This document shows, piece after piece, positions 62 through 35,548 of a DNA stretch of 35,548 bases. The DNA is from a virus (Duplodnaviria > Heunggongvirae > Uroviricota > Caudoviricetes): IMG/VR virus record IMGVR_UViG_646564533_000012. One strand, written 5' to 3'. How positions within the stretch are numbered: the stretch's first letter is position 1; every line of letters begins with the position of its first letter. The notes beneath the pieces are model-generated. The model made no database searches, was not told where the DNA came from, and was given only the letters and a program-made list of their open reading frames with translations. A program made the position numbers and the translations under genes.

Positions 62-92
62 GAAAAAAGGCCGCAGAGCGGCCATAAACACA
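62..92 (-). terminator. putative rho-independent terminator downstream of the int-cargo operon
   Basis: GGCCGC-N3-GCGGCC hairpin followed by a T-run when read on the minus strand; coordinates approx. Confidence 0.35.
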
Positions 93-189
93 AACAAAAA
101 TCAATAAGTTAGATAATTATCAAAGACTTACAGACACACAAAAACACAGCCAACCACAACAAATAACAGGGATGTGGTCACTTTGTGGA

Positions 190-606
190 TCATTCGCTCC
201 CCTCTTTTTCCTTATTTCGTTGAACGCCAATTGCGACACACGTACTAAGCAAATCTTTACATTTCTCTACGTCTTCAGACTTACGCAATTTGATGCTTTT
301 TACAGACTGCGGGCTACTGTCCGTAGCACGATACATCGTTATTTCAATATCATTTCGGTCTAAGAGTCCCATAATGGCTTTTGCAACCTCCACACCCTTC
401 TTCGCGAAATCAAAGAACAGAGCAAGTTTATATGGATTTTCGACGGAAAAAACTTCAATTTTGCTAAAACCAACATCGTGTCGAGAAAAATATTGCTCAA
501 CCTCATCTCGAAGTTCTGGATCGCAGACAATGTCTATTCTCCAGTACTGACCTAAATGCAAATCGCTATTAACTGTTTTTTCCACAACATCCTCCTTACC
601 CAGCAA
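190..606 (-). CDS. hypothetical protein, AT-rich cargo gene coupled to int
   Basis: 138-aa track ORF whose start overlaps the int stop; strong AAGGAGG sits at the int stop, with an in-frame GTG about 5 nt downstream (alternative start near 585); visibly lower GC than the phage core; no recognisable motif. Confidence 0.55.
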   Translation of the reverse strand: MLGKEDVVEKTVNSDLHLGQYWRIDIVCDPELRDEVEQYFSRHDVGFSKIEVFSVENPYKLALFFDFAKKGVEVAKAIMGLLDRNDIEITMYRATDSSPQSVKSIKLRKSEDVEKCKDLLSTCVAIGVQRNKEKEGSE

Positions 607-2666: not shown

Positions 2667-2954
2667 ATGACCAAAGACCATGCACAAGGTGTATTTATCC
2701 GTTTTATTGATTTTCGCGGTGAACTGTTATTACGTGCATCCGCTATTGACGGAGTGACTCCGGCGGGTAAAAACGGAGCCGACGAAGCCACTTACGTTTA
2801 TCTGAACGGCACGCGACTGCTTGTGGAACTTCCGTACCAGACCGTACGAGAAATCATTAGCGAAGCTGAAAAGGCACGCCAAGTTAATGGCGATGAACCC
2901 TATATCGAAATTATTTGTATGGATTCAGAAGCTGAAATACAGAAAGCAGATTAA
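2667..2954 (+). CDS. hypothetical early protein
   Basis: Track ORF 2553..2954 trimmed to the Met just after the upstream stop (MTKDHAQGV...), about 95 aa. Confidence 0.45.
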   Translation: MTKDHAQGVFIRFIDFRGELLLRASAIDGVTPAGKNGADEATYVYLNGTRLLVELPYQTVREIISEAEKARQVNGDEPYIEIICMDSEAEIQKAD

Positions 2955-2965
2955 AGGGTGTTGCA

Positions 2966-3208
2966 ATGGACAAAGAATATAAAACACTCATCAACAAAGC
3001 ACTTGAGCGTTTCTATTTTCGCTTAAGTGCATCAGGCGTTCATGCTGAACGTGCAGCCCGTGACTCATTGACCAGGGCAATCCGGAGTCTGTATGACGTG
3101 GCTTTTTACGCTGATGATCTGGATGCACTTAACGAACTTTCCGAGCTGATCTGTGCCGCAGAATGCGGAGAACATATTGAACCGTATAAGCTGGGGAATA
3201 TCGCATGA
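2966..3208 (+). CDS. hypothetical early protein
   Basis: 80-aa ORF in the early operon. Confidence 0.5.
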   Translation: MDKEYKTLINKALERFYFRLSASGVHAERAARDSLTRAIRSLYDVAFYADDLDALNELSELICAAECGEHIEPYKLGNIA

Positions 3209-3318
3209 GTATATTTATCTCATGGCTTGTTCTGATTATTTCGGTGGCCTGCGCCATTGGGATTATGCGAATTATTAATTCAGTGAAAAAGATCGAGCGT
3301 TTTTTCTCTGATGAATAA
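3205..3318 (+). CDS. small hydrophobic membrane peptide (37 aa)
   Basis: ATGA stop/start overlap with the upstream ORF; reads MSIFISWLVLIISVACAIGIMRIINSVKKIERFFSDE with one predicted TM helix; below the track size cut-off; coordinates approx. Confidence 0.4.
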   Translation: MSIFISWLVLIISVACAIGIMRIINSVKKIERFFSDE

Positions 3319-3411
3319 CGATACAAATAAAACATCAAATTAAATAAGAAAACGTGAAAACCATCCGTATTAACGGAGGTATTCGCACACGCAAATAACG
3401 GAGATACAAAA

Positions 3412-3822
3412 ATGCACGCAAAAGAAGAAGGTATCATCAGAGCACTGAAAGAAATTTCAAAGATGGAAAGCGAAGTAGCGAAAAAAGCCGTGGCCAATGC
3501 TCGCATGGACGTCGCAACCCACACAATGATAGTCGCAAAAGTCACGGCAGAAGCTGCCAAAATCATCGAAGAACAGGGTGTGGAACTTGCGCTTCTCAAA
3601 ACTAAACCAGTCACCGGACTGGATTTATCTGACACCGGACGCCTTATTTACACTATTGGCTCGGAGCCACAGCGATACACCATTATCGCCGGATTACAGA
3701 ACAAATACCTGATCACTCCTCACCCCATAAGGGAATCAGCGCTTCTGACAAATCTCCGCCTGATAGAGCGCTCTCAAGTTGCATTCATTGATGACGCCCG
3801 ACACACCGTATTTAACGCATAG
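3412..3822 (+). CDS. hypothetical early protein
   Basis: 136-aa ORF with GGAG upstream. Confidence 0.55.
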   Translation: MHAKEEGIIRALKEISKMESEVAKKAVANARMDVATHTMIVAKVTAEAAKIIEEQGVELALLKTKPVTGLDLSDTGRLIYTIGSEPQRYTIIAGLQNKYLITPHPIRESALLTNLRLIERSQVAFIDDARHTVFNA

Positions 3823-4608: not shown

Positions 4609-4930
4609 GAAACCAGAACATGCACACACAAAAAAACCGCTTGCCATGCCGCAATCGGTCAGGTTACATTTCCGCTGCACCTCATAAAACGGGTGCCGGG
4701 ATTCTCAACCCGATACAGAGCAAAGCGCATAACCGCGCCAGCGGTTTTTTTGTGCGTACTGTATTGCCACGTCTTTTTCGCGTCAGAATTATGGCGGGGC
4801 GTACGGGGCCGACTTCGGTCGGGCCGGATTCTTTGCTCTCCGGTGTTGAGAACCCTGTACGTCTCGCCACCCCGAGATTCTCAACTCTGGATGGTGAGCT
4901 ATTTCTATCACCGAGCAAAGAGGCCACACC
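4609..4930 (+). ncRNA. structured non-coding region (candidate small RNA or protein-binding array)
   Basis: About 320 bp with no credible ORF between coupled early genes; UUCG-loop hairpin (approx 4807..4825); three copies of TTCTCAAC, two direct and one inverted (approx 4702, 4845, 4878). Confidence 0.3.
4731..4753 (+). terminator. putative intrinsic terminator inside the early region
   Basis: AACCGC-GCCA-GCGGTT hairpin followed by TTTTTTTG; coordinates approx. Confidence 0.35.
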
Positions 4931-5161
4931 ATGGCAAACCGCAAACAACAGCGCGCATACGCTGCGCGTCGTCACATCCAGACTGAAATCAACCGTAGAC
5001 TTTTCCGCGCATCACGCGTCGCGCAAATCATGCACATCAATATGCTGCATGAGCGCAGCCACGCACTATCAAACATTTATTCCGCCTCTGTTTTCAGTTA
5101 TCTGGCGGATGATCTGCACGAGCTTCAACAGCTCATCCAGCAGCAAAACAAACTCCATTAA
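4931..5161 (+). CDS. hypothetical small basic protein
   Basis: 76-aa ORF with AAGAGG upstream. Confidence 0.45.
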   Translation: MANRKQQRAYAARRHIQTEINRRLFRASRVAQIMHINMLHERSHALSNIYSASVFSYLADDLHELQQLIQQQNKLH

Positions 5162-5233
5162 TTCCTGTTCCGGGCCTTTCCTGCACCTTGCGGCGGGAGG
5201 CCTTCGCACATCTGTAGTAAAGAGAATTGCAGC

Positions 5234-5623
5234 ATGATTGACGCTCATGACTTCACAAGATGGGTGCGCACACAGGACACCCGTCTGGCTCCCGTTCTTC
5301 AGGGATTATTTGATCTCTACATCCGTGGTCGTGACAACAGAGCACACACCACAAAACCGGAAAATGCAGACACCCTTTATTTCACAGTAGACGACTGCTA
5401 CCGCGTGGACTTCACACCACACGGGCTGGCGTTGCATTGCCTGACACCACACGGAGAATCACTGCTGGCGTATTACGACTCCCCGGCCTCCGTATTTGCG
5501 GCAATGCTGGCGCATCGCACTGCTGGCGGGTGTGCCTCGCTGAGTGAATACACCGCTGAATTTAACCGCCTTTCTGCCCTCTTCTCGCAGGAGTGGCAGC
5601 GCGTGACGGGATACCAGCCATGA
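5234..5623 (+). CDS. hypothetical protein coupled to A
   Basis: 129-aa ORF whose stop overlaps the A start (ATGA). Confidence 0.55.
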   Translation: MIDAHDFTRWVRTQDTRLAPVLQGLFDLYIRGRDNRAHTTKPENADTLYFTVDDCYRVDFTPHGLALHCLTPHGESLLAYYDSPASVFAAMLAHRTAGGCASLSEYTAEFNRLSALFSQEWQRVTGYQP

Positions 5624-8460
5624 GTGAGTTTGCATGGAGCTGGAATGAACCACGGCCAGCCATTGATCCGGCCAGATTTACGGAGCACAGGCAGGAAACT
5701 GAAACCGACCTACAACGCGCCATCCGTTACTACCTTGAGGCAGACAAAAAGGCTCTGGAAGAACAGGAAGCGAAGGAGGAAGCCTTTTTCGCACAATCCA
5801 CCGTGGGTAAAAAACTCATGGCATCCCTTGAGGAAGCCGGACAGCGTGAAAAGCTGGCACAAAGCATCATCAGCAAGCGTCAGGCAACAGAACAAGACCC
5901 GGTGGCCCGTGCTTTTGCCACACTGAAGGTGCTTCCCGTTTATCTGCGTGAACCTCTGAGCCGCCACCTCTCTTTCCTGCGCAAAAAACAGGAAGCCGAT
6001 CGCCAGAAAGGCAAAAAGAGCTGGCAGGCTGAACGCTACGCGCGCGGAACCCTGCGCAAAATATTCGAACGCCTGGACCGCACCGATCACCGCTGGCTGA
6101 CACCGGGTTATCGCTCCCTTGCCGGACGCGAACGCCTGGACGATTTGCTTTACCTGCCGCAGCTCAACAAACACCAGATACAGACGCTGGCCACCATGAC
6201 GGCGGCGATGTTCAGCAGCACCTTCGAAAAACTCTGCGATGGCTTTGGTGCGACTGATGGCGAACTGACCATGGATGTAACGCTGAAGGCGTATCAGATG
6301 CTGGCCCGCATGGCGTTACACCTGCACGCCATGCCTCCACATTATGACGCACTGACAACAGACAAAGACCGGAGGAACGAACCGGACACGGAGCTGCTGC
6401 CGGGCGCAACCCTTCGCCTGACCTGTGCGGAATGGTGGAAACGCAAACTGTGGCTGTTACGTTGCGAGTGGAGAGAAGAACAACTCCGCGCCGCCTGTCT
6501 GGTTTCCAGAAAAACATCACCCTATCTGAGCCAGGACGCGTTAAGCGAGTTTCGCGCACAGCGCGAGAAAACACGCGATTTCCTGAAAAGTTTCATGCTG
6601 GAAAACGAAGACGGGTTCACGATTGATCTCGAGACAGTGTATTACGCGGGAGTAAGTAACCCGGTTCACCGTAAGGCAGAAATGATGGCCACCATGAAGG
6701 GGCTGGAACTTCTGGCCGAAGCCCGTGGCGACAAAGCGGTGTTTCTGACTGTCACCTGCCCGTCAAAATACCACGCCACAACAGAGAACGGTCATCCGAA
6801 TCCCAAATGGAACGGGGCCACCATGCGCGACTCCAGCGATTACCTGGTTAACACGTTTTTTGCGGCGGTCCGCAAGAAACTGAACCGCGACGGCCTGCGC
6901 TGGTATGGCATCCGCACAGTGGAGCCTCACCATGACGGCACCGTGCACTGGCATATGATGGTCTTTGCTCATCCGGAAGAAATCGACACCATTGTGTCCC
7001 ACACCCGCGATATTGCCATTCAGGAAGACCGCCACGAGCTGGGCAATGATATTACTCCGCGCTTTAAGGTGGAGTATGTCGACGGCTCAAAAGGCACGCC
7101 AACCAGCTACATCGCCACCTACATCGGAAAGAACCTGGACAGCCGCGCCGTGGATGGCATCGACCCGAAAACGGGCAAGCCACGCGTTGACCACGAAACC
7201 GGAAAATCAATGGCCGAGAGCGTGGAACGCGCCATCGGCTGGGCACGCCTTCACCGGGTCCGCCAGTTCCAGTTCTTTGGCATCCCCTCCCGTCAGGTAT
7301 GGCGTGAACTCCGCCGCCTTGCCAGCCAGATGGCACGCAACCCGGAAGGCCCACAACGGCTGAAGGATGATGCAATGGATGCGGTACTCGCTGCCGCTGA
7401 TGCCGGGTGTTTTGCCACCTACATTGAGAAACAGGGCGGCGTACTTGTTCCACGCAAAGACTACCTGATTCGCACCGCCTACGACCTCGCAGATGAGCTG
7501 AACGATTACGGCGAACAGAGCGTACAGATTTACGGGATCTGGTCACCACTCATCGGGGAATCCTCCCGTGTGTGCACGCACCCGGATAACTGGAAGCTGG
7601 TAAGACGTAAACCGGAAGCGGAAGACAGCACCCGCGAAAATGGTTTTGACCTTCAGGGCGGCCCTGCCGCCCCTTGGACTCGTGGCAATAACTGTCCCCG
7701 TGTACAGGAAACGGACAACAACGGGACAGAACAGCCGGAAGAACGGCCAGCACCGTGGCCGCAGCTCCCTGACGGCGTTGATGTGGATGAATGGATGCGC
7801 TCACTGAAACGGCACGAACGCCGGGCGCTGATGCGTTCGCTTCGTGACAAACAGGCAAAAAACAGCAGTGATGAAATGCAGAGCTGGACACAGAGCCGCA
7901 AACAGCAGCGGCCTTTGCCTGATAACCACGAATTACTCGCTAAAGAATGGCGGGAGTCTGCTGAATCTCTCGGCCTGCATATCGGTGAACAACAGATGCA
8001 GCACCTGTTACGGGGCGGCAGTCTGTACGTTGACGGCAGCATCATTGCACCGCAGGGATTTGAAATTGTACGCAAACCGGATACCCGCCCGGACAGCCGA
8101 ATCACGCAGCTCTGGCAGCGCCTGAGCCGTAATCATGGCGTAAGCAGCACGGAGATCCGCCATAACCCGGTCGCCAGCTATCTGACACAGCTGGAGGCAT
8201 CAGACCCTGAAGCCGCCGCACGCCTGGCATCCACACTTCAGCAGGACCAGAACACCATGAAAACACCCGTTACCGTGCTTTCTGACATGCTGCGCGCCAT
8301 CCGCGACGCAGAGCACGCACAGAGAATCAGTGAAACCACTGAACGCGCCCGCCGCAAAGCAGACCTGCTGCGGGGTGGCCTGACCAGTGGAAACAAAAAA
8401 CAGACAGAAACGGGACTCACGAATCCCGCAAATGAGCAAAAAACGCGCAGCGATATATGA
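5620..8460 (+). CDS. A: replication initiation endonuclease A (rolling-circle, HUH superfamily)
   Basis: Track ORF trimmed to MSEFAWSW; HUH-type motif HWHMMVF and paired catalytic tyrosines in TPTSYIATYIGK; about 946 aa with a long low-complexity C-terminal extension. Confidence 0.93.
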   Translation: MSEFAWSWNEPRPAIDPARFTEHRQETETDLQRAIRYYLEADKKALEEQEAKEEAFFAQSTVGKKLMASLEEAGQREKLAQSIISKRQATEQDPVARAFATLKVLPVYLREPLSRHLSFLRKKQEADRQKGKKSWQAERYARGTLRKIFERLDRTDHRWLTPGYRSLAGRERLDDLLYLPQLNKHQIQTLATMTAAMFSSTFEKLCDGFGATDGELTMDVTLKAYQMLARMALHLHAMPPHYDALTTDKDRRNEPDTELLPGATLRLTCAEWWKRKLWLLRCEWREEQLRAACLVSRKTSPYLSQDALSEFRAQREKTRDFLKSFMLENEDGFTIDLETVYYAGVSNPVHRKAEMMATMKGLELLAEARGDKAVFLTVTCPSKYHATTENGHPNPKWNGATMRDSSDYLVNTFFAAVRKKLNRDGLRWYGIRTVEPHHDGTVHWHMMVFAHPEEIDTIVSHTRDIAIQEDRHELGNDITPRFKVEYVDGSKGTPTSYIATYIGKNLDSRAVDGIDPKTGKPRVDHETGKSMAESVERAIGWARLHRVRQFQFFGIPSRQVWRELRRLASQMARNPEGPQRLKDDAMDAVLAAADAGCFATYIEKQGGVLVPRKDYLIRTAYDLADELNDYGEQSVQIYGIWSPLIGESSRVCTHPDNWKLVRRKPEAEDSTRENGFDLQGGPAAPWTRGNNCPRVQETDNNGTEQPEERPAPWPQLPDGVDVDEWMRSLKRHERRALMRSLRDKQAKNSSDEMQSWTQSRKQQRPLPDNHELLAKEWRESAESLGLHIGEQQMQHLLRGGSLYVDGSIIAPQGFEIVRKPDTRPDSRITQLWQRLSRNHGVSSTEIRHNPVASYLTQLEASDPEAAARLASTLQQDQNTMKTPVTVLSDMLRAIRDAEHAQRISETTERARRKADLLRGGLTSGNKKQTETGLTNPANEQKTRSDI

Positions 8461-8536: not shown

Positions 8537-9496
8537 ATGAAAATTTGTATCGACGACGGCTCCACCAACATCAAGCTGGCATGGACTGAGAACGGCGAAC
8601 GCCGCAACGCCATCAGCCCGAACAGCTTCAAGTCGGAATGGTCTGCGCCGTTCGGTGGCACGCAGCCCGCGAACTACATGCTTGATGGCGTGCGCTATGG
8701 TTTTGATCCGGTCAGCGATCGCTTTGTCCAGACGACCGACACGCAATACCAATACAGCGATGTGAATGTCATTGCCATTCATCACGCGCTGGTCAAATCA
8801 GGCATCACACCACAGGAGGTGGATGTGGTTGTCACCCTGCCACTGAGCGAGTATTTCGACACAAACGCACAGCCGGACATGGCCAACATCAACCGCAAAA
8901 AAGCGAACGTTATGCGCCCGGTGGAGTACCAGAACGGCGAAGCATTCACTATCCGTAACGTGCGGGTTATGCCTGAATCCATTCCGGCTGGCTTTAAGGC
9001 ACTGGCTGACATGAGTCCGTTTGAATCCCTGCTGATTGTGGATTTGGGCGGAACCACGCTGGATGTGGCAAAGGTTCAGGGGCAACTGGCAGGTATCAGC
9101 CAGGTGTTTTGCGATCCACACGTAGGCGTTTCTCTGATGGCCGATGCCGTACTGTCGGTGATGGCCACTAACGGTATGCGCACCAGTCACCACATCGCCA
9201 ATACCATTATCGAACATCGCCATGATGAAGCCTGGCTGCGCCAGCACATCCACAATGACGCGCATTACGACAGCCTGATGGCGGTTATTCGTGAAAAGGA
9301 AGAAACACTGAAACAACGAGTGATCCGCGCGCTGGCGGGTTTTTCGGGTTACGGGCGGGTGATGGTTGTCGGTGGCGGGGCGGAGATTGTGGCACCCGCT
9401 ATCCGCGAAGCCTGCGGAGTTAATGCGACTTTCATCGCGGACGGGGTGCCACAGTTTGCTCTGGTTAATGGGCTGTACGCAATGGACAAGGAGTAA
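8537..9496 (+). CDS. parM: ParM/StbA-like actin-type segregation ATPase
   Basis: N-terminus MKICIDDGSTNIKLAW matches the plasmid R1 ParM phosphate-1 motif; similarity continues (SPNSF, YSDVNV, HHAL, LIVDLGGTT); 319 aa. Confidence 0.88.
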   Translation: MKICIDDGSTNIKLAWTENGERRNAISPNSFKSEWSAPFGGTQPANYMLDGVRYGFDPVSDRFVQTTDTQYQYSDVNVIAIHHALVKSGITPQEVDVVVTLPLSEYFDTNAQPDMANINRKKANVMRPVEYQNGEAFTIRNVRVMPESIPAGFKALADMSPFESLLIVDLGGTTLDVAKVQGQLAGISQVFCDPHVGVSLMADAVLSVMATNGMRTSHHIANTIIEHRHDEAWLRQHIHNDAHYDSLMAVIREKEETLKQRVIRALAGFSGYGRVMVVGGGAEIVAPAIREACGVNATFIADGVPQFALVNGLYAMDKE

Positions 9497-9500
9497 ACCA

Positions 9501-9812
9501 ATGACGACACCAACCAGACGGATAAGTTTCTATCTGAAGCCCGCCGCCGTCAAGAACGAAGGCGAAGCATGCACCTGGCTGGACAGCCTTACACCAGAAG
9601 CCCGCAAAAGCGGCCAACGTGTGGCTTTTCTGGCCGGGCTGGCACTTCTGAAAATGAATCCGGCAGAGGCTTACCGACTGGCTGCATGGGCTGACGATGA
9701 GGCGTTATCAGTGACACAAACCAGGACAGAACGCCCCGCGTCACAGCCAGTACCAACCTCACAGATAACCAGTCGGATGGCCGGAAATATCAGGGCGTTA
9801 TTTCCCGAATAA
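9501..9812 (+). CDS. parR: ParR/StbB-like centromere-binding adaptor
   Basis: Track ORF trimmed to the Met behind AAGGAG (MTTPTRRISFYLKP...); ISFYLKP, WLDSL, AFLAGLAL and NIRALFPE align with R1 ParR; immediately downstream of parM. Confidence 0.78.
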   Translation: MTTPTRRISFYLKPAAVKNEGEACTWLDSLTPEARKSGQRVAFLAGLALLKMNPAEAYRLAAWADDEALSVTQTRTERPASQPVPTSQITSRMAGNIRALFPE

Positions 9813-9819
9813 CACAACA

Positions 9820-9845
9820 TCAGGGCGCATCCGCCCTGATGACTT
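9820..9845. promoter_or_regulatory. perfect 10-bp-arm inverted repeat (CATCAGGGCG-N4-CGCCCTGATG)
   Basis: Lies between parR and the next gene; operator or terminator hairpin; coordinates approx. Confidence 0.35.
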
Positions 9846-9875
9846 TAATCCGGGAACATAAACAAGGGGGACACA

Positions 9876-10208
9876 ATGCAACACATTGACAGAGAAAAAG
9901 CGCAGCGACTGATTGAGCGGATGGAAGCGCTGGCGAAAGAAGAAAATGTCAACATCCAAAAAATAGCTGAATGTGGCCAGATAGTTCTTCGTCGTGAAAA
10001 AGACCTCAAACAACTGATGTCTGGCGAAACCAGCAAAACATGGACTTCAGGCGAGGAGACGATTTATTGCAGCTTCTGCAATAAATCTCAGTACGAAGTC
10101 ACAAAGGTGATTGCCGGACCGTCTGTTTGCATCTGCAATGAGTGCGTGGATTTGTCCAATGAAATTATCAGGAGAGAAGTGACAGACAAAAAGGGAAAAA
10201 ACGCATGA
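9876..10208 (+). CDS. small protein with ClpX-type C4 zinc-finger (ZBD)-like C-terminal domain
   Basis: [39 protein letters not shown] nearly matches the ClpX N-terminal zinc-binding domain as I recall it; charged, helical N-terminal half. Confidence 0.78.
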
Positions 10209-10543
10209 ACAGAAAACAAAAACAAGAGTTGAAATACTTTTTACGTAAAGAAATTGCCAGGCTTGAAGATGCAGAATCACAATCATCAGAAATTCCGTTC
10301 GGAATGGATATCAACGACGCCCGTATGCTCCAGGCATACCGCATAGCTCAGGCTGCACTACAGGCAAAACCGTCAGATGGACTGGTTAGAGCAGTACGAT
10401 TCTATGAACTGGTAAAGCGTGAGAATCCGCCAGCCGAAACCGGAGCATGGAAAGACGCTGTTGACTGGGTACTCAAAGAGGCTTGTCAGGTTGTAAACAC
10501 TGGCATCAAAGGAGACCTAGCCCAGCCTGCATCAAAGCTATAG
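10205..10543 (+). CDS. hypothetical protein coupled to the ZBD gene
   Basis: 112-aa ORF with ATGA overlap to the upstream gene. Confidence 0.5.
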
Positions 10544-27595: not shown

Positions 27596-30412
27596 TCAAT
27601 CTTTATCGTAAAAACTGCCACGTCCGGCACGGGCGCGCCGTTCCATCTCTGCCCTGACCATTTCACCGACCAGTTTCGCCAGTTCGCGGGGATTCTGCGT
27701 AACAACGTTATGCAGATGAACATGAATTTCACCGCCAAATCCGGAGGCAACAGGCTCCCGGTTACGGGAAGTTACAGGAACTGATGCCACTGGAGATCGT
27801 ATGGCCTCCGCCACCGGGCGGGAGCTGGCCGCAACAACAGGGACCAGCGCCGGAGGCAGCGGAGCCGGGACCACGGGTGTGATATTAATTGCGGGGGCAG
27901 GCTTACTGACCTGCGCAATCTTCCGCTCCTGCCACTCCCCACGAACAGCAAGTGCGCGGGGCAGGTTCTTAAAGACAATATCGCCGGGGCCAATGCGTTT
28001 TTTCGTCTCATCAACCAGCTTACCTGTGTTATCAGCAATTTTGCTGAGTCTGCGTAGCGTCCCGGTATTGCTGTCTGTGAGCGGTTTGTTGTCTTTGGGT
28101 TTATCACCTCCGGTGCCATTGCCATTTTCCACAGGCTTCGGCGGATTGATTTTCGCAAGGTCCCCCTGAAGCAAGGCAACCTTGTCCTGAAGAATGGCCG
28201 CACGCTGTGCGTCTTCGATTTTCTTGCGCGCCCTTTCCGCTTCATCCGGAAGGACGCCAAGTTTTTCAAGTATCCACGCCAGCGTATCCAGTAGCATTTT
28301 TGCAGGTGTCAGAACAAGCTGTAACGCACCGCCAAGAACGTTACCGAATATCTCGCCAGCACTGGTACATTTATCCAGCGTTTCCTTGCTGGACTCCATC
28401 GGTGACAGCAGCGATTTAAACCAGTTAAACACCTGGCTGATCCCGCTTCCGATTGCGTCAAAAACAGGACCAAACCGTTCAAAGGTTTCGCGCAACGGGG
28501 TCAGCCTTTCCATAATCCCGCTGAACACCCCGGCAAAAAATGCCCTGATGGGATCCCAGTATTTCCAGATAAGAACGGCAGCTCCGGCAAGCGCAGCCAC
28601 GATAAGACCAACCGGACTGAACAGCGCCCCGATAGCGCCTCCCAGTAAAGAAACGGAACCCGTCACCATTCCCCACAGCGCAGGCAACACCCTGACGACA
28701 TTCATTGACCGGGTAAGAATGTCAAAACCAAGACGCAGGGTGGCCAGCTTCCCGTAAAGCACCCCAATAACCAGCGACAACGAGCCAATCGTTGCAGTCA
28801 TTGCCAGCAACGCACCGCCTGCTATCAGTAGCTGGCGCGTCAGTACCGGATGGGCCTGCGCCAGCGAGGTGATTTTTTCAAGCACCCGCGTGAGCCACTG
28901 CGTGACAGAACGCAGCGGACCGTCAACCAGATCACTGATGCGAATACGAAGACCTTCCCATGCGCTGTCGAGATTTTTCAGGTCCCCATCAAGATTATCG
29001 GCCATTACTTTTGCGACGCGATCGGCCTCTCCCCTTGCCCCCTGCAATTCTCTGGTCAGTTTTTGCAGCTCTCCTGAACCAGCCGCCGCAACAAGCGTCT
29101 GCAAACCAACGAACGCCTCTTCTCCGGCGATGTCCTTGAAGAAGGAAACCTGGTCCACCTGTCCGTATTTTTGTGTCGCCTTATAGAGATCAAGCAGCAC
29201 ATCCTCCATCGGGCGCATTTTGCCTCTGGCGTCAGCAACTGACACCCCCAGCTCTTTCAGTGCATCAGCCGCAGCTTTTGGCGGTGATGCAAGGCGGGAC
29301 AGACTTGCGCGCATGGCCGTACCAGCATCGCTTCCGCGAAGACCATTATTGGCAAGCATCCCGGCCATGGCCGCCGCTTCTTCAAGACTGATACCAAGTT
29401 TTGCGGCAACCGGACCGGTATACTTCATGGTTTCGCCCAGCGCGCGTAAATCAGTATTGGTCCGGGTGAATGCCGCTGTCAGCGTATCGCCAACACGGTC
29501 CATTTGATCGGCTGTCAGGTTGAACTGTGTGAGGATATTGGAGCCTATATCAGCCGTCTCGCCGAGTTCGACGCCACCTGCCAGCGCCATATTAAGAACA
29601 CCGGGCAATGCGGCCTGAATGGCCTGCGGAGTAAAACCAGCCATTGCCAGAAAGCTCTGCCCACTGGCGGCATCACTCGCAGTAAACTGTGTTTCAGAGC
29701 CAAGTTTTAACGCCTGCTCACGCAGCGCCTTAAACTGCGGGCTGTTTTTGTCGATTCGCGTCAGTGCCTGAACGCGGGACATCTCTTTGCCGAACCCGAT
29801 CGCAGGCTGCAAAAAACGCCCGGCAGCATAGCCGCCCGCCGCTGCCGCACCAATTGCCAGCGCACCACCTGTTTTCAGTTTCCCCGCGGTTTCCTGCGCG
29901 CGCGAATACCGCTCACGCGCCCGCGTTACACGCGCAAGCGCCTGCCGTTCGCGTTCAAGCTGGTTGTTGTACTGTTCGGTGCGTCTGATGGCCTGCTGGA
30001 TGGTGTTATCGCTGCCTGTCAGGGAAATGCCGTGTCGTTTCAGTTCTCCGCCAAGTTCCCGCATTTTCTGAATTTCCCGTGTGCGCGATTCATTCAGGCG
30101 TTCAAGCCGGGTGCTTAACTGCTGCATCAGCTTTTGTTGTTTTTCGCTGAGCACTGTACCCGTGCGTTGTAACTGATTAAGGGCGTTAAGCTGGCGTCGT
30201 GCTTTCACGATGCCCGCATCCGCTTTACTGACAGCGTCACGGGCGCGCTCAAATGAACGCGCCTGACGCTCGAGATTTTTGATCGCCCCCTGCGTTCGCT
30301 GGATGGAGTCACCAAACTGCCCCATCAGGCGGCGGGCGTTTTCGGCAGGCCGGGTCAGCCTGTCAACGGCGCTGAAAGCGACCCGGATATCAAGAGTCTT
30401 CATTGTCTGCAT
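27596..30412 (-). CDS. T: tail tape measure protein T
   Basis: About 940 aa, helical N-terminal half and Gly/Ala-rich hydrophobic core typical of tape measure proteins; start trimmed to MQTMKTL after the E' stop. Confidence 0.9.
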   Translation of the reverse strand: MQTMKTLDIRVAFSAVDRLTRPAENARRLMGQFGDSIQRTQGAIKNLERQARSFERARDAVSKADAGIVKARRQLNALNQLQRTGTVLSEKQQKLMQQLSTRLERLNESRTREIQKMRELGGELKRHGISLTGSDNTIQQAIRRTEQYNNQLERERQALARVTRARERYSRAQETAGKLKTGGALAIGAAAAGGYAAGRFLQPAIGFGKEMSRVQALTRIDKNSPQFKALREQALKLGSETQFTASDAASGQSFLAMAGFTPQAIQAALPGVLNMALAGGVELGETADIGSNILTQFNLTADQMDRVGDTLTAAFTRTNTDLRALGETMKYTGPVAAKLGISLEEAAAMAGMLANNGLRGSDAGTAMRASLSRLASPPKAAADALKELGVSVADARGKMRPMEDVLLDLYKATQKYGQVDQVSFFKDIAGEEAFVGLQTLVAAAGSGELQKLTRELQGARGEADRVAKVMADNLDGDLKNLDSAWEGLRIRISDLVDGPLRSVTQWLTRVLEKITSLAQAHPVLTRQLLIAGGALLAMTATIGSLSLVIGVLYGKLATLRLGFDILTRSMNVVRVLPALWGMVTGSVSLLGGAIGALFSPVGLIVAALAGAAVLIWKYWDPIRAFFAGVFSGIMERLTPLRETFERFGPVFDAIGSGISQVFNWFKSLLSPMESSKETLDKCTSAGEIFGNVLGGALQLVLTPAKMLLDTLAWILEKLGVLPDEAERARKKIEDAQRAAILQDKVALLQGDLAKINPPKPVENGNGTGGDKPKDNKPLTDSNTGTLRRLSKIADNTGKLVDETKKRIGPGDIVFKNLPRALAVRGEWQERKIAQVSKPAPAINITPVVPAPLPPALVPVVAASSRPVAEAIRSPVASVPVTSRNREPVASGFGGEIHVHLHNVVTQNPRELAKLVGEMVRAEMERRARAGRGSFYDKD

Positions 30413-30928
30413 TCCCGCTGCGAAGTGCCGCCCGCTCACGCCAGCTAACCACTTCGCCGGGCGTCATCATGAAGATTTCGGCGGGCGACCAGTTAAAAAT
30501 GGCGGCGATATCTGCCACCAGATCTTCGATGTGCTCAAAGCACACCAGGGTGATTACGCTGCCGTCTCCTGCACGCTCTTCGCGCCAGAGTCTGGCTCGC
30601 TCATAAAATTTACAGCCACAGCGCACAACTGAATAAAATCGCGTGACGACATTTTTTTAATCATCACTTCATCCAGTCGTGGCGAGGTCACGCGAGGCAA
30701 CAGCGTGAACATGGTATCCGCTTTCAGATTCAGCACATCAGACAGCGACAGACCACGCAGGGATCCAGCCTGTTCAATAGCCCCGGTGATCTCCACATAC
30801 GTGATTTTTTCGCCACCACGCTCAATTGGTCGGGTCAGTTTTACGCCACGTTCGACAGCCATATCCTCACCTGCCGTCACATCATCCGCCACGGTGTTAT
30901 TCCGGGTTTCAGTATCGATGTCTTTCAT
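30390..30928 (-). CDS. tail assembly chaperone E+E' (-1 programmed frameshift product)
   Basis: Seven-A run at approx 30653..30659 on the coding strand (ATT AAA AAA ATG); the -1 frame continues as the 30390..30626 track ORF; analogous to P2 E/E+E' and lambda G/GT. Confidence 0.65.
30554..30928 (-). CDS. E: tail assembly chaperone E
   Basis: 124-aa ORF between FII and T; contains the A7 slippery run. Confidence 0.8.
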   Translation of the reverse strand: MKDIDTETRNNTVADDVTAGEDMAVERGVKLTRPIERGGEKITYVEITGAIEQAGSLRGLSLSDVLNLKADTMFTLLPRVTSPRLDEVMIKKMSSRDFIQLCAVAVNFMSEPDSGAKSVQETAA

Positions 30929-30983
30929 CAGTTGTCTCCTTTTCAGTCAGAGGCGACGCACTGCGCCGCCTGCATATTACTTA

Positions 30984-31496
30984 TCAGCCAAGCCCAAGCG
31001 CGGAACGGATACGGTCAGGCACAATGTCCTTGCCGTCCTTCCGGTAAATGAAGTTCAGCAGGTCAATCTCCCACAGCGGGCGATCGTTAACGCTCAGCTT
31101 GTAGTAGGTGTTTTTAATGGCGTAAGAGTGTGATGTGGCTTCGCCCTGTTTGGCTTCCCCCATATCAATTTCCGTCACACGTCCGCGCATTTCGACTTCA
31201 TACAGGTCGCTTTCTGCATCGGTGTAGTATTCACCCGCAAAACGCAGCAGCGTGCCGTCAATCGTGCCGCCATACTTAAGGAACAGCTCACGAACTGCGC
31301 CCCCCATGACAAAGCTCGCATCAAGCGCGGAGTCGTCCAGACCGAGATCAATACTTACCGCACCCATCATGCCACCACCCCGGTAGCTGTCGGTTTTGCG
31401 CGTCAGCTTAGGCAGAGTGACGGACGTCACCTTACCCACTTCGTTTTCACCATCCACAAACAGCGTAAAAAAGCGAAGATGTTTTGGCACAGCCAT
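30984..31496 (-). CDS. FII: tail tube protein FII
   Basis: 170 aa, size and position as P2 FII. Confidence 0.9.
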   Translation of the reverse strand: MAVPKHLRFFTLFVDGENEVGKVTSVTLPKLTRKTDSYRGGGMMGAVSIDLGLDDSALDASFVMGGAVRELFLKYGGTIDGTLLRFAGEYYTDAESDLYEVEMRGRVTEIDMGEAKQGEATSHSYAIKNTYYKLSVNDRPLWEIDLLNFIYRKDGKDIVPDRIRSALGLG

Positions 31497-32680
31497 CAGG
31501 CACCTCCCAGCACCGCAAATGCGGGTTCAAAGTATTCATCAGTAAACGTCTGGTAAAGCTCCATATCTTCCAGCGGGGGAACAGGCGTATATTTGTAGCG
31601 AATACGCACACGCCCCTGACGTAAATCCGTGGTGCTGTTATCCACCACGTCATACCAGCACTCCGCGCCAATCAGTTTCCCGGCAGTAACCAGTGAATCC
31701 AGTTTTGCCCTGATGGCACTGATAACATCCTTCACGTTCGCAGGCGTCAGTGGACTGTCGATGGTTTCAAACTGCGCTTCCGCAATTGAATCAGCCAACA
31801 CCTGTGCGGTTCGGGTATACACCTCAAAGATGTAGGCGTTCGTTTCCGGTGTGCGGTTGCCCCAGAAGCGGAACCCGTTGCGACGAATAATGGTCGTGAT
31901 TTCTTTGTTGTTGAGGCTGTTGGCATCACTGTCTTCGGCCTGCAACGACCAGAACACATGCCTGGACATCCCCAGCACATTTTTAACCGGAACGTTGGAC
32001 AGCGATTTGTGCCAGCCCTGTTCATGGTCAATGTACGCACGGAGGCCGCACGCATAGGCAGGCGCGGGGAACGTTTCGTTTTTGCCACTTTTGGGGTTGT
32101 AGGCGATGAAGTCCGGCCATAAGAGCATCACCTCACGTTCGTTGAATTTCTGGCGGTAGGTAATCGCCTCAGCCATCGTGTTACAGCCGTGACATGAGGC
32201 ATACACAAACGCGCGCAGTTTACCTGCAATCACGCACAGGGATTTTGTTACAGCCTCCGTGTCCAGCTCCGGCGCGGCCAGAATACGCGGACGGTATCCG
32301 ATGCTTTCATCCTGCTCTGCAACAAGCAGCGCATACATCCCCGTATAGCTGCCGTCATCCTCAGAACCACCGATAACCAGTTGATCCTGCGTCTTTCCGT
32401 CTTCTTCTTTGTGTTCAGCCACGCGAACGACGATCACCTTTGTGCTCACCTGGTCTGCAATGGCCTTAAGCGCACGATAAAGCGTCCCCGTTGTCCCGCA
32501 TTTTCCCAGCACGTCATTGACGCGGATCAGCAGTGTGGGCTTGTTCAGCGGGAACAGCTTCGCGTCCGCATCATCCGCCGTTGCCACGATACCGATAACG
32601 CTGGAATCAACATCGTTAATCGCTGTTACCAGGTCGGTATTTTCCGTAACACGGGCACCATGAAAACGAGTTTCACTCAT
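31496..32680 (-). CDS. FI: tail sheath protein FI
   Basis: 394 aa, size and position as P2 FI. Confidence 0.92.
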   Translation of the reverse strand: MSETRFHGARVTENTDLVTAINDVDSSVIGIVATADDADAKLFPLNKPTLLIRVNDVLGKCGTTGTLYRALKAIADQVSTKVIVVRVAEHKEEDGKTQDQLVIGGSEDDGSYTGMYALLVAEQDESIGYRPRILAAPELDTEAVTKSLCVIAGKLRAFVYASCHGCNTMAEAITYRQKFNEREVMLLWPDFIAYNPKSGKNETFPAPAYACGLRAYIDHEQGWHKSLSNVPVKNVLGMSRHVFWSLQAEDSDANSLNNKEITTIIRRNGFRFWGNRTPETNAYIFEVYTRTAQVLADSIAEAQFETIDSPLTPANVKDVISAIRAKLDSLVTAGKLIGAECWYDVVDNSTTDLRQGRVRIRYKYTPVPPLEDMELYQTFTDEYFEPAFAVLGGA

Positions 32681-32837
32681 AGCTTCAGCCCCTTGTATCC
32701 GTTAAATGATTCGGCAACAATCATCACCCACCACGCGCGTAATCTCACCCCTGCGCCGTTCTCCCGACCCGGCGACAACAAAAAGCAGTAACCCCCTCCG
32801 CACGCACATGCGACCATGCCGCACAGGGAGGGAACAG
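32681..32837. promoter_or_regulatory. divergent promoter region between FI (leftward) and D (rightward)
   Basis: 157-bp gap between two divergent starts; promoters inferred from arrangement only. Confidence 0.3.
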
Positions 32838-33947
32838 ATGACCGACACCACCATGCAATTGCTCAGTCAGGGCACAGACCCCGTGAAAATGCCGGATTTT
32901 GATATTCTTGCGGAGGGTAAAACGCTGTCAGGCGTGGCAGAGCGCCTGATGAGCCTGTCACTGACCGACAACCGGGGATTTGAGGCGGACCAGCTCACCA
33001 TCACGCTGGATGATGCGGATGGTCAGTTGCAGCTACCGCCACGGGGCGCGCGCCTGACGGTTCTCATTGGCTGGAAAGGAGAACCGCTGACAGAAAAAGG
33101 CACTTACATTGTTGATGAAATCGCTCACGAAGGACCGCCGGACAGGCTGACTGTTTCAGCCAGAAGCGCAGATTTTCGGGATGAATTTAACGTTAAACGT
33201 GAGGTGTCCTGGCATGATGTGACCCTTGAGCGTGTGGTATCCGCCATCGCTCATCGGTATGGTCTGAAACCACAAATCAGCGAAATGCTGATGGATATCG
33301 AAATCGACCACGCCGACCAGACCGAAGAAAGCGACATGTCCTTCCTTACGCGCATGGCGGAAATGCTGGGCGCAATCACCACGGTAAAAAGCGGTAATCT
33401 GTTATTCATCATGCCAGGCGGTGGCGTGAACGCACAGGGCCAGCCGTTGCCCTCGTTCGCCATCACGCGCAGCAGTGGCGATCGCCATCAGTTCCGCATT
33501 GCTGACCGCGAAGCGTATACGGGGGTACGCGCTTACTGGCTTGATCTTAATTACGGGAAAAAGAAAAAAGTCAGCGTGAAACGCCGCAAACCGCCAAAAC
33601 CCAAAAAGGAGAAAAGCAGCAGCCGTGAAGGTGATTATATGGAAGGCGCAGAAGGCAATGTGTTTGTGTTACGCAAGACTTATCAGAACGAGCAGGCAGC
33701 AAGACGCGCAGCGGCGGCAAAGTGGCAGCAGCTACAACGCGGAGCCGCAGCGTTCTCCATCACACTGGCACGTGGACGCGCAGAACTCTACCCCGAAATG
33801 CATGGCACGGTAACAGGATTTAAAAGCGAAATTGATAATCAGGACTGGATTATTGCAAAAGCCGAGCACACCATTGATAACAGTGGCTTTACCACGCAGC
33901 TTGAGCTTGAAGCCAAAATCCCGGAATGGATAGCAGAAACAGAGTAA
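32838..33947 (+). CDS. D: tail protein D (late control gene D family)
   Basis: Track ORF 32706..33947 trimmed to the Met behind GGGAGGGAACAG; about 369 aa, size and neighbourhood match P2 gpD. Confidence 0.82.
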   Translation: MTDTTMQLLSQGTDPVKMPDFDILAEGKTLSGVAERLMSLSLTDNRGFEADQLTITLDDADGQLQLPPRGARLTVLIGWKGEPLTEKGTYIVDEIAHEGPPDRLTVSARSADFRDEFNVKREVSWHDVTLERVVSAIAHRYGLKPQISEMLMDIEIDHADQTEESDMSFLTRMAEMLGAITTVKSGNLLFIMPGGGVNAQGQPLPSFAITRSSGDRHQFRIADREAYTGVRAYWLDLNYGKKKKVSVKRRKPPKPKKEKSSSREGDYMEGAEGNVFVLRKTYQNEQAARRAAAAKWQQLQRGAAAFSITLARGRAELYPEMHGTVTGFKSEIDNQDWIIAKAEHTIDNSGFTTQLELEAKIPEWIAETE

Positions 33948-34141
33948 ACAACTTAGATGCATTAGCCCTGACATTTGCTAACGCGCTTACAGCAAGAATC
34001 ATAACCAATCTGACAGCCTACCCGGTGTCAAAATCAGAAGAGCCTTACATTAGAATATGTTAATTTGTAGCAAACAAATTTACACACAAATGATTACTGC
34101 TGAAATAGCCCCCATAAATACCATGTCAAAGGATCCATGTT

Positions 34142-34807
34142 ATGAATATGCAAATTTTTATCGCACCAGCAGCCACAGTTGCTGCAGTCTGCCTTGCTGC
34201 ATATTTTGCTTTACGAAATGAACGTAAAAAGAAAGCACTTGAGATTAGAACAACTCAACTAGATCGAATATCAGAGCTAGTAAACCGAGCATCTACCAAT
34301 TTGATGCAATATACAGGTACTCTTGCCTCTATACTGGAAGCGCACGCCAAAGATAATTATCTACCGAACAAAAAATTTGACATTAATGTAATTAGCAAAT
34401 GGAAAGATTGCCTCGATGAGAGTGAGGTCTGGGCGATTGATAGACAGCAACTAAGAACATGTCAGCACAGTCTGGAGTTTCATCGTGAAAAAGAATGGGC
34501 TGAATGGAAAAAAATAATTCCACCATTACTTGATAAAATTGACCAATTTTTTCTCATATCTAAGCCAGGGCAACCTGTTACGTTTATAAATGGCCAAAAC
34601 AAAACAGCTGATGAACTACTTGTTTTCTCAAGATATTTGAGAAAACAAACAGCAGAAATTGAATCAGTACGTCAGCTGTTACTTTCTCAAATGAGAGAGG
34701 AATTCATCGAGTTAACTAGCTTTGAACCTGTCACAATGTTTAGCTTATTTAAATCAATAAAGAAAAATGTCATGCAATTTTTCTGTATCAGTGCTCTTAA
34801 AAATTGA
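34142..34807 (+). CDS. hypothetical membrane-anchored protein, AT-rich cargo gene
   Basis: 221 aa with N-terminal TM helix IFIAPAATVAAVCLAAYFAL; markedly AT-rich against flanking D and ogr; own AT-rich upstream region and downstream terminator. Confidence 0.6.
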   Translation: MNMQIFIAPAATVAAVCLAAYFALRNERKKKALEIRTTQLDRISELVNRASTNLMQYTGTLASILEAHAKDNYLPNKKFDINVISKWKDCLDESEVWAIDRQQLRTCQHSLEFHREKEWAEWKKIIPPLLDKIDQFFLISKPGQPVTFINGQNKTADELLVFSRYLRKQTAEIESVRQLLLSQMREEFIELTSFEPVTMFSLFKSIKKNVMQFFCISALKN

Positions 34808-34821
34808 CGCTCTGTTGCAAG

Positions 34822-34852
34822 CAACCCCAGTGTTAAACTGGGGTTATTCTTG
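34822..34852 (+). terminator. putative terminator after the cargo gene
   Basis: AACCCCAGT-GTTAA-ACTGGGGTT hairpin followed by ATTCTTG; coordinates approx. Confidence 0.4.
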
Positions 34853-34956
34853 CTAAGAGACCTTTCTACGGCATCAGTAAACAAAACGAACTATCAGTTG
34901 GAGTCTGAGCAAGTTCAGCCTAAACTAGCGACAGCACTACGTTAAGGGAGGTCGCT

Positions 34957-35217
34957 ATGTTCCGTTGTCCGCTTTGTGGCGCATCTGCCCGTATCCGCAC
35001 CAGTCGTCCGGAAAATGATTCAAACACCGTGCGGCAAAAGTATTACCAGTGTAACAACCTGGAATGCGGCGTATGCTTCTCAACACTGGAAGCTTTCCAT
35101 AAATTCACATCGAAACACGCCTCCGGCATCCACTCTTCAGAAGGTATCCCGTGGCATGAGCTGCCAGCTTCACACAGGGGAAACAATCAGATGAGCTTGC
35201 CTTTACCTCAGAATTAA
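34957..35217 (+). CDS. ogr: late transcription activator Ogr/Delta family zinc-finger protein
   Basis: MFRCPLCGASARIRTSR...YYQCNNLECGVCFSTLE matches the P2 Ogr C-X2-C...C-X4-C pattern; AAGGGAGG upstream. Confidence 0.9.
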   Translation: MFRCPLCGASARIRTSRPENDSNTVRQKYYQCNNLECGVCFSTLEAFHKFTSKHASGIHSSEGIPWHELPASHRGNNQMSLPLPQN

Positions 35218-35277
35218 CAGGCAGAATTGCCGGAGTAACAAAAAAGCGATAGATTACGCGCGGGTGCCTTTCGGCTG

Positions 35278-35490
35278 ATGGTCGGAGGGAATACCCGAAG
35301 GCCAGATGTGGAAAGGCCCCGGAAAACATCTCTGTTTAACCGAGGCCCTAACCGCATTACCTTGACAAGTGAAAGGTTAGCGCCTCTCCGGAAAAGGAGC
35401 AAGTGCTATGTCGCAAAAATCGCTTACGGCCATCACGTTCTGCGTGACGGCAATCCTCATCATCTGGATGTTGCACGGTTCGCTGTGTGA
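35278..35490 (+). CDS. mok-like overlapping reading frame of the hok locus
   Basis: 70-aa ORF starting upstream of and overlapping the hok-like frame, as in hok/mok/sok loci. Confidence 0.35.
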   Translation: MVGGNTRRPDVERPRKTSLFNRGPNRITLTSERLAPLRKRSKCYVAKIAYGHHVLRDGNPHHLDVARFAV

Positions 35491-35548
35491 AATACGGATG
35501 AGCTTCTGGGGAGCGGAGTTTGCGGCGTTCTTACAGTGTAAGCAGTAA
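35408..35548 (+). CDS. hok: Hok/Gef-family type I toxin (46 aa)
   Basis: MSQKSLTAITFCVTAILIIWMLHGSLCEIRMSFWGAEFAAFLQCKQ: one TM helix then the SLCEIR...AAF signature of Hok/Gef toxins; below the track cut-off; stop is the last codon of the window. Confidence 0.6.
   Translation: MSQKSLTAITFCVTAILIIWMLHGSLCEIRMSFWGAEFAAFLQCKQ

What the first reader, a model, noticed from the sequence alone, without database searches (positions are those of the whole stretch)
33948..34860. AT-rich membrane-anchored cargo gene between D and ogr
A 221-aa protein with a single N-terminal TM helix and a soluble domain of no recognisable family is inserted between two core late genes, with its own AT-rich upstream region and a terminator. 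Composition is far lower in GC than the neighbours, indicating recent horizontal acquisition. Single-gene membrane-anchored cargo in this position is typical of abortive-infection or superinfection-exclusion factors.
Basis: partly seen in the sequence, partly recalled or inferred. Interest (0 to 1): 0.66.

Follow-up and report, generated by a model that had tools for sequence, protein, structure and literature searches.

The report
Known prophage anti-phage gene DS-43

Summary
A 221-aa ORF (34142-34807, +) lies in a 968-bp insert (33958-34925) between gene D and ogr of a P88-like (Xuanwuvirus) prophage next to ihfA. Its GC is 0.36 against 0.53 for the window. It has one N-terminal membrane helix, an upstream Shine-Dalgarno sequence and a strong downstream hairpin.

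The protein is identical to WP_001057122.1. DeWeirdt et al. (DefensePredictor, Science 2026, PMC13092281) cloned it with its native promoter. It cut plating of Bas1, Bas3, Bas9, Bas19 and SECphi18 by 10^4.8 to 10^6.3, and they named it DS-43. The defence reading is therefore supported and already known.

New here:
- The D/ogr junction is polymorphic. It is empty in 720 of 5426 complete E. coli genomes. At least five other cargos use it, including DUF2971/PDC-S31, PIN, weak-HEPN and Mrr-like genes.
- The DS-43 family is small and restricted to Enterobacterales. It occurs on P2-like and lambdoid prophages, plasmids, an ICE and defence islands.
- The predicted build (N-out/C-in anchor plus cytoplasmic helical bundle) matches Csx28, but no sequence or profile homology to Csx28-like proteins was found.

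Mechanism is inferred only. A membrane pore causing abortive infection is my first choice (about 0.4). Exclusion at DNA entry is the main rival.

The parts
32847..33947 (+). Gene D (tail / late control D family), left conserved flank of the cargo site
   Evidence: ORF ends at 33947. Annotated as tail protein / phage late control D family in P88 and in E. coli records. Homology with the empty-junction phage runs to 33957.
33958..34925 (+). Inserted cassette relative to the empty D/ogr junction of phage P88 (968 bp, GC 0.376)
   Evidence: BLAST and junction alignment against P88, 500465-2 and strain 48956.
34000..34141 (+). Upstream non-coding region that travels with the gene. It presumably carries the native promoter. 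It contains the invariant block GAATATGTTAATTTGT and the AGGA Shine-Dalgarno at 34130-34133.
   Evidence: 77% nucleotide homology with the Kluyvera lambdoid prophage starts at 34000 and ends at 34814. Alignment. No sigma-70 consensus site was found. The native-promoter clone was active in MG1655 (PMC13092281).
34142..34807 (+). DS-43 gene (221 aa, WP_001057122.1). Residues 4-24 (34151-34213) form the membrane helix. The juxtamembrane motif is RNERKKK. Invariant H114 is at 34481-34483 and invariant W122 at 34505-34507.
   Evidence: ORF. Accession from the 100% identical record. Identical sequence string in Table S8 of PMC13092281. Hydropathy. Invariant columns. AlphaFold2 model with pLDDT 80.6.
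34810..34859 (+). Terminator-like hairpin (core stem 34823-34845) after the stop codon
   Evidence: -26.7 kcal/mol, z -5.8.
34882..34956 (+). Pre-ogr segment shared by all cargo cassettes at this site. It holds a possible ogr promoter: TTGGAG 34898-34903, a 17-nt spacer, then TAAACT 34921-34926. This is inferred and weak in this copy (7 of 12 consensus positions).
   Evidence: Alignment of five different cassettes. Junction comparison.
34957..35217 (+). ogr (Ogr/Delta zinc-finger late-gene activator), right conserved flank
   Evidence: ORF. Annotation.

Best explanation
The gene is DS-43, a single-gene anti-phage defence system. It is carried as a moron at a polymorphic cargo site between gene D and ogr of a P88-like prophage.

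Shown:
- The protein is identical to WP_001057122.1.
- When cloned alone with its native upstream region on a low-copy plasmid in E. coli MG1655, it lowers plating of Bas1, Bas3, Bas9, Bas19 and SECphi18 by about 10^5 to 10^6. Bas11 gives small plaques.

Inferred from sequence and model:
- A single N-terminal helix anchors the protein in the inner membrane, with a very short N-terminus outside.
- An all-helical bundle faces the cytoplasm. This follows from the positive-inside rule, which holds across the family.

Proposed mechanism (inference, about 0.4): the protein rests as an inactive membrane-tethered oligomer. A cytoplasmic or membrane-proximal cue from infection by certain siphoviruses then opens or assembles it into a pore. 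The pore depolarises the membrane and aborts the infection. Csx28 does this downstream of Cas13b, but DS-43 would have no separate sensor.

Confidence in identity and defence function is about 0.97. The confidence figure below covers the whole statement, mechanism included.
For: Identity: the 100% identical E. coli record annotates this CDS as WP_001057122.1. The sequence string in Table S8 equals the window translation.

Function (PMC13092281): Table S6 lists D668 / DS-43 with defensive = TRUE. Table S7 gives log10 EOP drops of 5.0 for Bas1, 5.0 for Bas3, 4.78 for Bas9, 0.52 with small plaques for Bas11, 6.34 for Bas19 and 5.11 for SECphi18. The native-promoter, low-copy design is described.

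Context: other cargos at the same site are defence-like. Distant relatives lie in islands with SMODS+S_4TM, KAP NTPase, TIR, nSTAND, RES and Abi genes.
Against: No mechanistic experiment exists for DS-43. The main text of the paper does not discuss it.

Homology to Csx28 is not supported here:
- The family HMM against all PDB sequences gives no Csx28 hit at E <= 10.
- hhalign against the Csx28-like DS-13A gives 1-2% probability and covers only the TM region.
- The paper's own HHblits link is weak, with coverage 0.167 and probability 55.7.

The sensitive phages I can place are siphoviruses (Bas1-11 and Bas19; family assignment from my own knowledge of the BASEL collection). That pattern would equally suit a block of DNA entry at the inner membrane. 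These phages are also hit by many other DS systems in the same screen, so the spectrum says little.
Confidence: 0.45

Rival explanations
1. Superinfection exclusion at the DNA-entry step. The inner-membrane protein blocks passage of the siphovirus genome across the cytoplasmic membrane, and the cell survives. This is the way HK97 gp15 or T4 Imm act (my own knowledge of those systems).
For: It is an inner-membrane-anchored single gene on a prophage. EOP drops are very large, 10^5 to 10^6, with no plaques. Only a subset of the 24 panel phages is affected, and those I can place are siphoviruses (family assignment from my own knowledge). The juxtamembrane segment LRNExxKKxLEIR is the best conserved part of the family.
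Against: The predicted topology puts nearly the whole protein in the cytoplasm, not the periplasm. The family also sits on plasmids, an ICE and chromosomal defence islands, where exclusion of a specific phage type is less expected. There is no similarity to Imm or SieB families in Pfam.
Confidence: 0.27
2. Indirect resistance. Expression of the membrane protein perturbs the envelope, for example receptor or TonB-dependent uptake functions, so some phages adsorb or inject poorly. It would not be a dedicated immune function.
For: Phenotype data are plaque assays only. The affected phages are the ones most often hit by other systems in the same screen.
Against: The protein was expressed from its native promoter on a low-copy plasmid. 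The gene is under purifying selection, with dN/dS 0.24-0.34. It is kept on many kinds of mobile element next to defence genes. The protection is specific and very strong.
Confidence: 0.1
3. DS-43 is one part of a larger system and normally works with a partner, for example the SMODS cyclase plus S_4TM effector found beside distant relatives.
For: Relatives P0022 and P0029 lie 520-570 bp upstream of SMODS+S_4TM in two islands with different outer flanks.
Against: The single gene alone protects. In the window it stands alone between D and ogr. The other independent contexts examined lack SMODS. An HMM search of all fetched loci found no second family copy in any locus.
Confidence: 0.05
4. It is a host-fitness or virulence moron unrelated to phages, as neaT is in the P2-like prophage of CFT073.
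For: P2-like morons can have such roles (PMC3573123). The gene is AT-rich and phyletically rare, like neaT.
Against: There is direct anti-phage phenotype data. The neighbours of relatives are defence genes.
Confidence: 0.03

Closest known systems
DS-43 (working id D668, WP_001057122.1), DefensePredictor-discovered system, DeWeirdt et al., Science 2026 (PMC13092281)
   Same: The 221-aa sequence is identical. It is a single-gene system with TM 1-23 and a coiled coil at 158-184.
   Different: Nothing differs in the protein. The paper gives no genomic-site analysis, family description or mechanism.
Csx28, accessory membrane pore of type VI-B2 CRISPR-Cas13b (PDB 8GI1; preprint 10.1101/2021.11.02.466367)
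   Same: Both have a single N-terminal TM helix, a cytoplasmic helical-bundle domain and an anti-phage role. DS-43 is filed in the paper as a structural homologue of a known defence protein; Csx28 is listed there as its best HHblits hit to a known defence protein.
   Different: No sequence or profile homology was detected here. There is no conserved Rx4-6H motif and no cas13b neighbour. DS-43 is 221 aa against 177 aa and has extra helices. It acts alone, so it must sense infection itself.
Prophage superinfection-exclusion membrane proteins (HK97 gp15, T4 Imm, P22 SieA; recalled from my own knowledge)
   Same: All are small inner-membrane proteins encoded by a phage or prophage that protect the lysogen from other phages.
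   Different: There is no sequence similarity. The predicted bulk of DS-43 is cytoplasmic. The DS-43 family is also found on plasmids, an ICE and defence islands.
P2 moron / defence hotspots: old-tin between A and Q, and Z/fun in the tail region (PMC9122126, PMC13586616, 10.1101/2024.10.15.618418)
   Same: It is a variable, AT-rich cargo between conserved core genes of a P2-like phage, and cassettes are swapped at the site.
   Different: The position differs (D/ogr). Occupancy is low: the junction is empty in 720 genomes, whereas the main P2 hotspots are reported never to be empty. [quoted passage not shown]

Membership tests
DS-43 (DefensePredictor system) | Protein sequence equals WP_001057122.1 | tested here: met
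   The record that is 100% identical over window 33700-35300 annotates the CDS as WP_001057122.1. The sequence string in Table S8 is identical to the window translation.
DS-43 (DefensePredictor system) | Confers phage resistance when expressed alone | not testable with these tools
   Taken from the paper: defensive = TRUE, with EOP drops of 10^4.8 to 10^6.3 for five phages.
Csx28 | Single N-terminal TM helix with a cytoplasmic four-helix-bundle domain | tested here: met
   Hydropathy and the positive-inside rule across the family. All-helical AlphaFold2 model. These are predictions, not experiments.
Csx28 | Detectable sequence or profile homology to Csx28 / TM-HEPN VI-B proteins | tested here: not met
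   Family HMM against all PDB sequences gives no Csx28 at E <= 10. hhalign against DS-13A sequence and profile gives probability 1.1% and 2.0%, covering the TM region only. The paper's HHblits hit has coverage 0.167 and probability 55.7.
Csx28 | Specific fold match to 8GI1 | tested here: inconclusive
Csx28 | Divergent HEPN Rx4-6H motif | tested here: not met
   Only H114 and W122 are invariant. No conserved arginine lies 4-6 residues before H114, and the conserved motif reads LxFHRxxEW.
Csx28 | Encoded next to cas13b and activated by it | tested here: not met
   The gene lies between D and ogr. No cas gene appears in any of the family contexts examined.
Csx28 | Octameric pore and membrane depolarisation on activation | not testable with these tools
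   This needs oligomer-state and DiBAC4(3)-type assays.
Superinfection-exclusion proteins (Imm, SieB and similar) | Homology to a described Sie family | tested here: not met
   No Pfam or PHROG family at significant E-value.
Superinfection-exclusion proteins (Imm, SieB and similar) | Blocks DNA entry without killing the cell | not testable with these tools
   This needs DNA-entry and survival assays.
P2-like phage moron / cargo hotspot | Variable occupancy between conserved core genes, with alternative cargos | tested here: met
   The junction is empty in 720 genomes and this cassette is in 51. Other cargo genes occur in 65, 59, 20 and 16 genomes. The sampled loci are all at D/ogr.
P2-like phage moron / cargo hotspot | Atypical composition and own transcription signals | tested here: met
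   GC 0.36 and CAI 0.50. Terminator-like hairpin. The conserved upstream region travels with the gene. The promoter was not located by consensus, but the native-promoter clone is active.

The most novel reading that the evidence does not exclude
DS-43 is a self-contained sensor and effector. It would be a stand-alone, CRISPR-independent analogue of the Csx28 membrane pore whose cytoplasmic helical bundle, with invariant H114 and W122, recognises a siphovirus component directly and gates depolarisation. Its cassette sits in a previously unnamed D/ogr swap site. Cassettes there bring a shared right-hand adapter that may rebuild the ogr promoter, so defence genes can be exchanged without harming late-gene control.
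Probability: 0.25. Interest if true: 0.5.

Novelty: already known. Interest (0 to 1): 0.28.

Why it matters
The anti-phage role of this exact protein is published, so the finding adds no new kind of system.

What remains useful:
- The site. The D/ogr junction of P88-like prophages is a low-occupancy cassette-exchange locus with shared borders. The P2 hotspot papers read here do not name it explicitly.
- The family. DS-43 belongs to a small Enterobacterales-only family that moves between prophages, plasmids, an ICE and defence islands. It has two invariant residues that are obvious mutagenesis targets.
- The Csx28 link. It rests on shared architecture, not on detectable sequence or profile homology.

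A one-gene, membrane-tethered system with 10^5- to 10^6-fold protection is a tractable case for asking how a single small protein both senses and stops a phage.

Tried and rejected
- Family searches of the protein in Pfam, PADLOC 2.0, PHROGs and NCBIfam gave only noise.
- The family HMM against PDB sequences gave only chance-level hits.
- phmmer of the Csx28-like DS-13A against PDB did not retrieve 8GI1, so I could not get the Csx28 sequence for a direct comparison. As a substitute I ran hhalign against DS-13A and its homologue profile, which was negative.
- The sigma-70 consensus scan found no promoter in the 184-bp upstream region. Candidates picked by eye were weak and are not claimed.
- A lipoprotein or cleaved signal peptide was rejected. 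There is no lipobox, C17 is not conserved, and the N-region has no positive charge.
- The idea that the protein is the immunity protein of the neighbouring colicin-domain gene in Kluyvera was rejected. A 100-aa reverse gene sits in the usual immunity position.
- Tandem paralogues or an obligatory partner gene were not found.
- Peptides from the four alternative D/ogr cargos were not found in the stored DefensePredictor supplements, some of which were cut on storage.
- No supplements are held for the 2026 NAR P2/P4 paper.
- No paper in the library mentions WP_001057122 or DS-43 in its main text.

Full report
**1. The observation**

The window is a P2-like prophage of the P88 type (Xuanwuvirus, Peduoviridae). 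A 1.6-kb query spanning the finding matches E. coli chromosomes at 100% identity. There the element lies beside ihfA/pheT and ends with ogr and a hok/gef gene. Phage P88 and relatives match the flanks.

The ORF 34142..34807 (+) encodes 221 aa, and AGGA lies 8 nt before the ATG. ORF GC is 0.360, GC3 0.281, and CAI against the phage core genes 0.50. Thirteen other genes of the window have GC 0.49-0.60 and CAI 0.64-0.78. The stretch 34.0-34.6 kb is the GC minimum of the whole window.

The only strongly hydrophobic segment is residues 4-24, followed by RNERKKK. A hairpin at 34823-34845 (extended 34810-34859) folds at -26.7 kcal/mol with z = -5.8. Its T-tract is poor. Pfam, PADLOC, PHROGs and NCBIfam give nothing. 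The description is therefore correct.

Alignment with the empty junction of P88 sets the insert at 33958-34925, or 968 bp replacing about one base.

**2. It is a real, selected gene of a small mobile family**

A word-indexed search of 5.8 billion proteins found seven hits. An exhaustive HMMER scan of 1.84 billion representatives found 23. A profile search found 24. Every hit that carries a source name is called hypothetical and comes from an Enterobacterales genus.

Members down to 21% identity keep the length (199-259 aa), the N-terminal hydrophobic helix and the juxtamembrane motif LRNExxKKxLEIR. H114 and W122, in LxFHRxxEW, are invariant. dN/dS against the 85% and 73% identical homologues is 0.34 and 0.24.

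The family is found only as accessory DNA:
- at the same D/ogr junction of another P2-like prophage near serS;
- in the P-to-Q region of a Kluyvera lambdoid prophage;
- on Rep3/RepE plasmids of Klebsiella, Citrobacter, Pantoea, Erwinia and Winslowiella;
- between traC and traU of a Salmonella ICE;
- in islands holding SMODS+S_4TM, KAP NTPase, TIR, RES, nSTAND and YobI-type genes.

Nucleotide homology with the Kluyvera copy runs from 142 bp upstream of the ATG to 7 bp past the stop codon. The gene therefore moves together with its upstream region.

**3. The site is a cassette-exchange locus**

Counts are among 5426 complete E. coli genomes:

| State of the D/ogr junction | Genomes |
|---|---|
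| Flanks present | 1240 |
| Empty junction | 720 |
| This cassette (DS-43) | 51 |
| 340-aa reverse-strand gene, weak RiboL-PSP HEPN hit | 65 |
| 500-aa PIN_4 protein | 59 |
| 384-aa unknown gene | 20 |
| DUF2971 protein matching PADLOC candidate PDC-S31 | 16 |

One further locus has an Mrr-type nuclease fragment with IS1. The counts for the alternative cargos are for the gene anywhere in the genome. Only the sampled loci were checked to be at D/ogr.

All cassettes are AT-rich. They share a left border, TTAGA(T/C)(G/A)(C/T)ATTAGC, and a right-hand segment of about 75 bp before ogr. That segment contains TTGGA(N), 17 nt, then TA(G/A)A(A/C)T. The upstream half of this element is missing from the empty P88 junction. 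I read it as a possible ogr promoter brought by the cassettes. This is inference only, and in the window copy it matches just 7 of 12 consensus positions.

The hotspot papers I read name other P2 sites: A-Q, downstream of L (Z/fun), int-att, int-primase and 'within tail genes' (PMC9122126, PMC13586616). [quoted passage not shown]

**4. What the gene is**

The 100% identical E. coli record annotates the CDS as WP_001057122.1. That accession and the identical sequence string are in the supplements of DeWeirdt et al., 'DefensePredictor', Science 2026 (PMC13092281).
- Table S6 lists working id D668, log-odds 4.94, category 'Structural defense homolog', defensive = TRUE, name DS-43.
- Each unit was cloned with its predicted native promoter on a low-copy plasmid in MG1655 and challenged with 24 phages (strain list).
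- Table S7 gives log10 drops in plating of 5.0 (Bas1), 5.0 (Bas3), 4.78 (Bas9), 0.52 with small plaques (Bas11), 6.34 (Bas19) and 5.11 (SECphi18).
- Table S8 marks TM 1-23 and a coiled coil at 158-184. It gives Csx28 of Prevotella buccae as the best HHblits match to a known defence protein, at coverage 0.167 and probability 55.7.
- The main text does not discuss DS-43.

**5. How it may work**

Across 29 of 30 full-length family members the hydrophobic helix has 0-2 K/R on its N side and 4-6 on its C side (P0008, whose called start looks too far upstream, has 5). The positive-inside rule therefore places the short N-terminus outside and the rest in the cytoplasm.

This build matches Csx28. Csx28 is a 177-aa protein with one N-terminal TM helix and a cytoplasmic four-helix bundle. 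It forms an octameric pore and depolarises the membrane once Cas13b is activated.

Homology is not supported, however:
- The family HMM finds no Csx28 among PDB sequences at E <= 10.
- hhalign against the Csx28-like DS-13A and its homologue profile gives 1-2% probability, over the TM region only.
- No Rx4-6H motif is conserved.
- No cas gene is nearby.

My preferred mechanism is a membrane-tethered oligomer that opens into a pore on infection and aborts it. I hold this at about 0.4. The main rival is exclusion at the DNA-entry step (about 0.27). It is suggested because the sensitive phages I can place are siphoviruses (family assignment from my own knowledge). The cytoplasmic orientation argues against it, and so does the family's presence on plasmids, an ICE and islands. 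Indirect envelope effects (about 0.1) cannot be excluded from plaque data alone. A partner-dependent role with SMODS+S_4TM applies at most to a distant subfamily, because the single gene suffices.

**6. Verdict**

Novelty is 'already known' for the gene's function.

The modest additions are the description of the D/ogr cassette site, the family's distribution and invariant residues, and the negative test of Csx28 homology. Interest is low to moderate, because the mechanism of a validated one-gene system is still open.

Noticed in passing
window 35408-35548: A hok/gef-family ORF (46 aa) follows ogr at the right end of the prophage, just before host ihfA. It is present in all related prophages examined.
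   Followed up: partly
window 4677-4751 and 4787-4874: Rfam gathering-score matches to isrK (62.8 bits) and C4 antisense RNA (78.5 bits), on the + strand in the early/immunity region of the prophage.
   Followed up: no
window 33958-33975 and 34882-34956; L002, L005, L021, L022: Unrelated cargo cassettes at D/ogr share both borders. The left motif is ATTAGC(C/T)C. The right segment is about 75 bp and contains TTGGA(N)-17 nt-TA(G/A)A(A/C)T just before ogr. The empty P88 junction looks like a deletion between short C(T)TAGA repeats.
   Followed up: partly
L015 6001-9199; L018 6001-9233: Distant DS-43 relatives (P0022, P0029) lie 520-570 bp upstream of a SMODS cyclase plus S_4TM effector pair. The two islands have different outer flanks, and one also carries KAP NTPase, TIR, YuaX and RES genes.
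   Followed up: partly
L009, L031, L033, L034 (family gene at about 5930-6660 in each): On Rep3/RepE plasmids of Klebsiella, Pantoea, Erwinia and Winslowiella the family gene is convergent with a tyrosine recombinase of about 245 aa, next to the replication module. In these plasmids it looks like backbone rather than variable cargo.
   Followed up: no
L006 4077-5652: The Kluyvera lambdoid prophage that carries the 73% homologue also carries a 408-aa protein with a pore-forming colicin domain. A 100-aa reverse gene (possibly immunity) sits beside it in the P-to-Q region.
   Followed up: no
L003 2919-3317; hits H18 and H19: Decayed copies exist. In phage 520873 the gene is truncated to 124-132 aa, and in strains AR_0128 and AR_0118 an IS1A lies within the matched region.
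   Followed up: no
window 27596-33947: Sheath, tube, E and tape-measure genes are on the - strand and D is on the + strand. D, the cargo, ogr and hok therefore form their own rightward block, unlike the FETUD order of P2. PGAP annotates D as a shortened 801-bp CDS with an upstream pseudo fragment, whereas P88 has 1101 bp.
   Followed up: no
window 1-600 and 2800-3800: These are the only other low-GC stretches of the window (0.405 and 0.42-0.44). ORFs at 2318-2653, 3129-3632 and 4620-5234, and in the A-Q interval (8537-10540), have no PADLOC match.
   Followed up: partly
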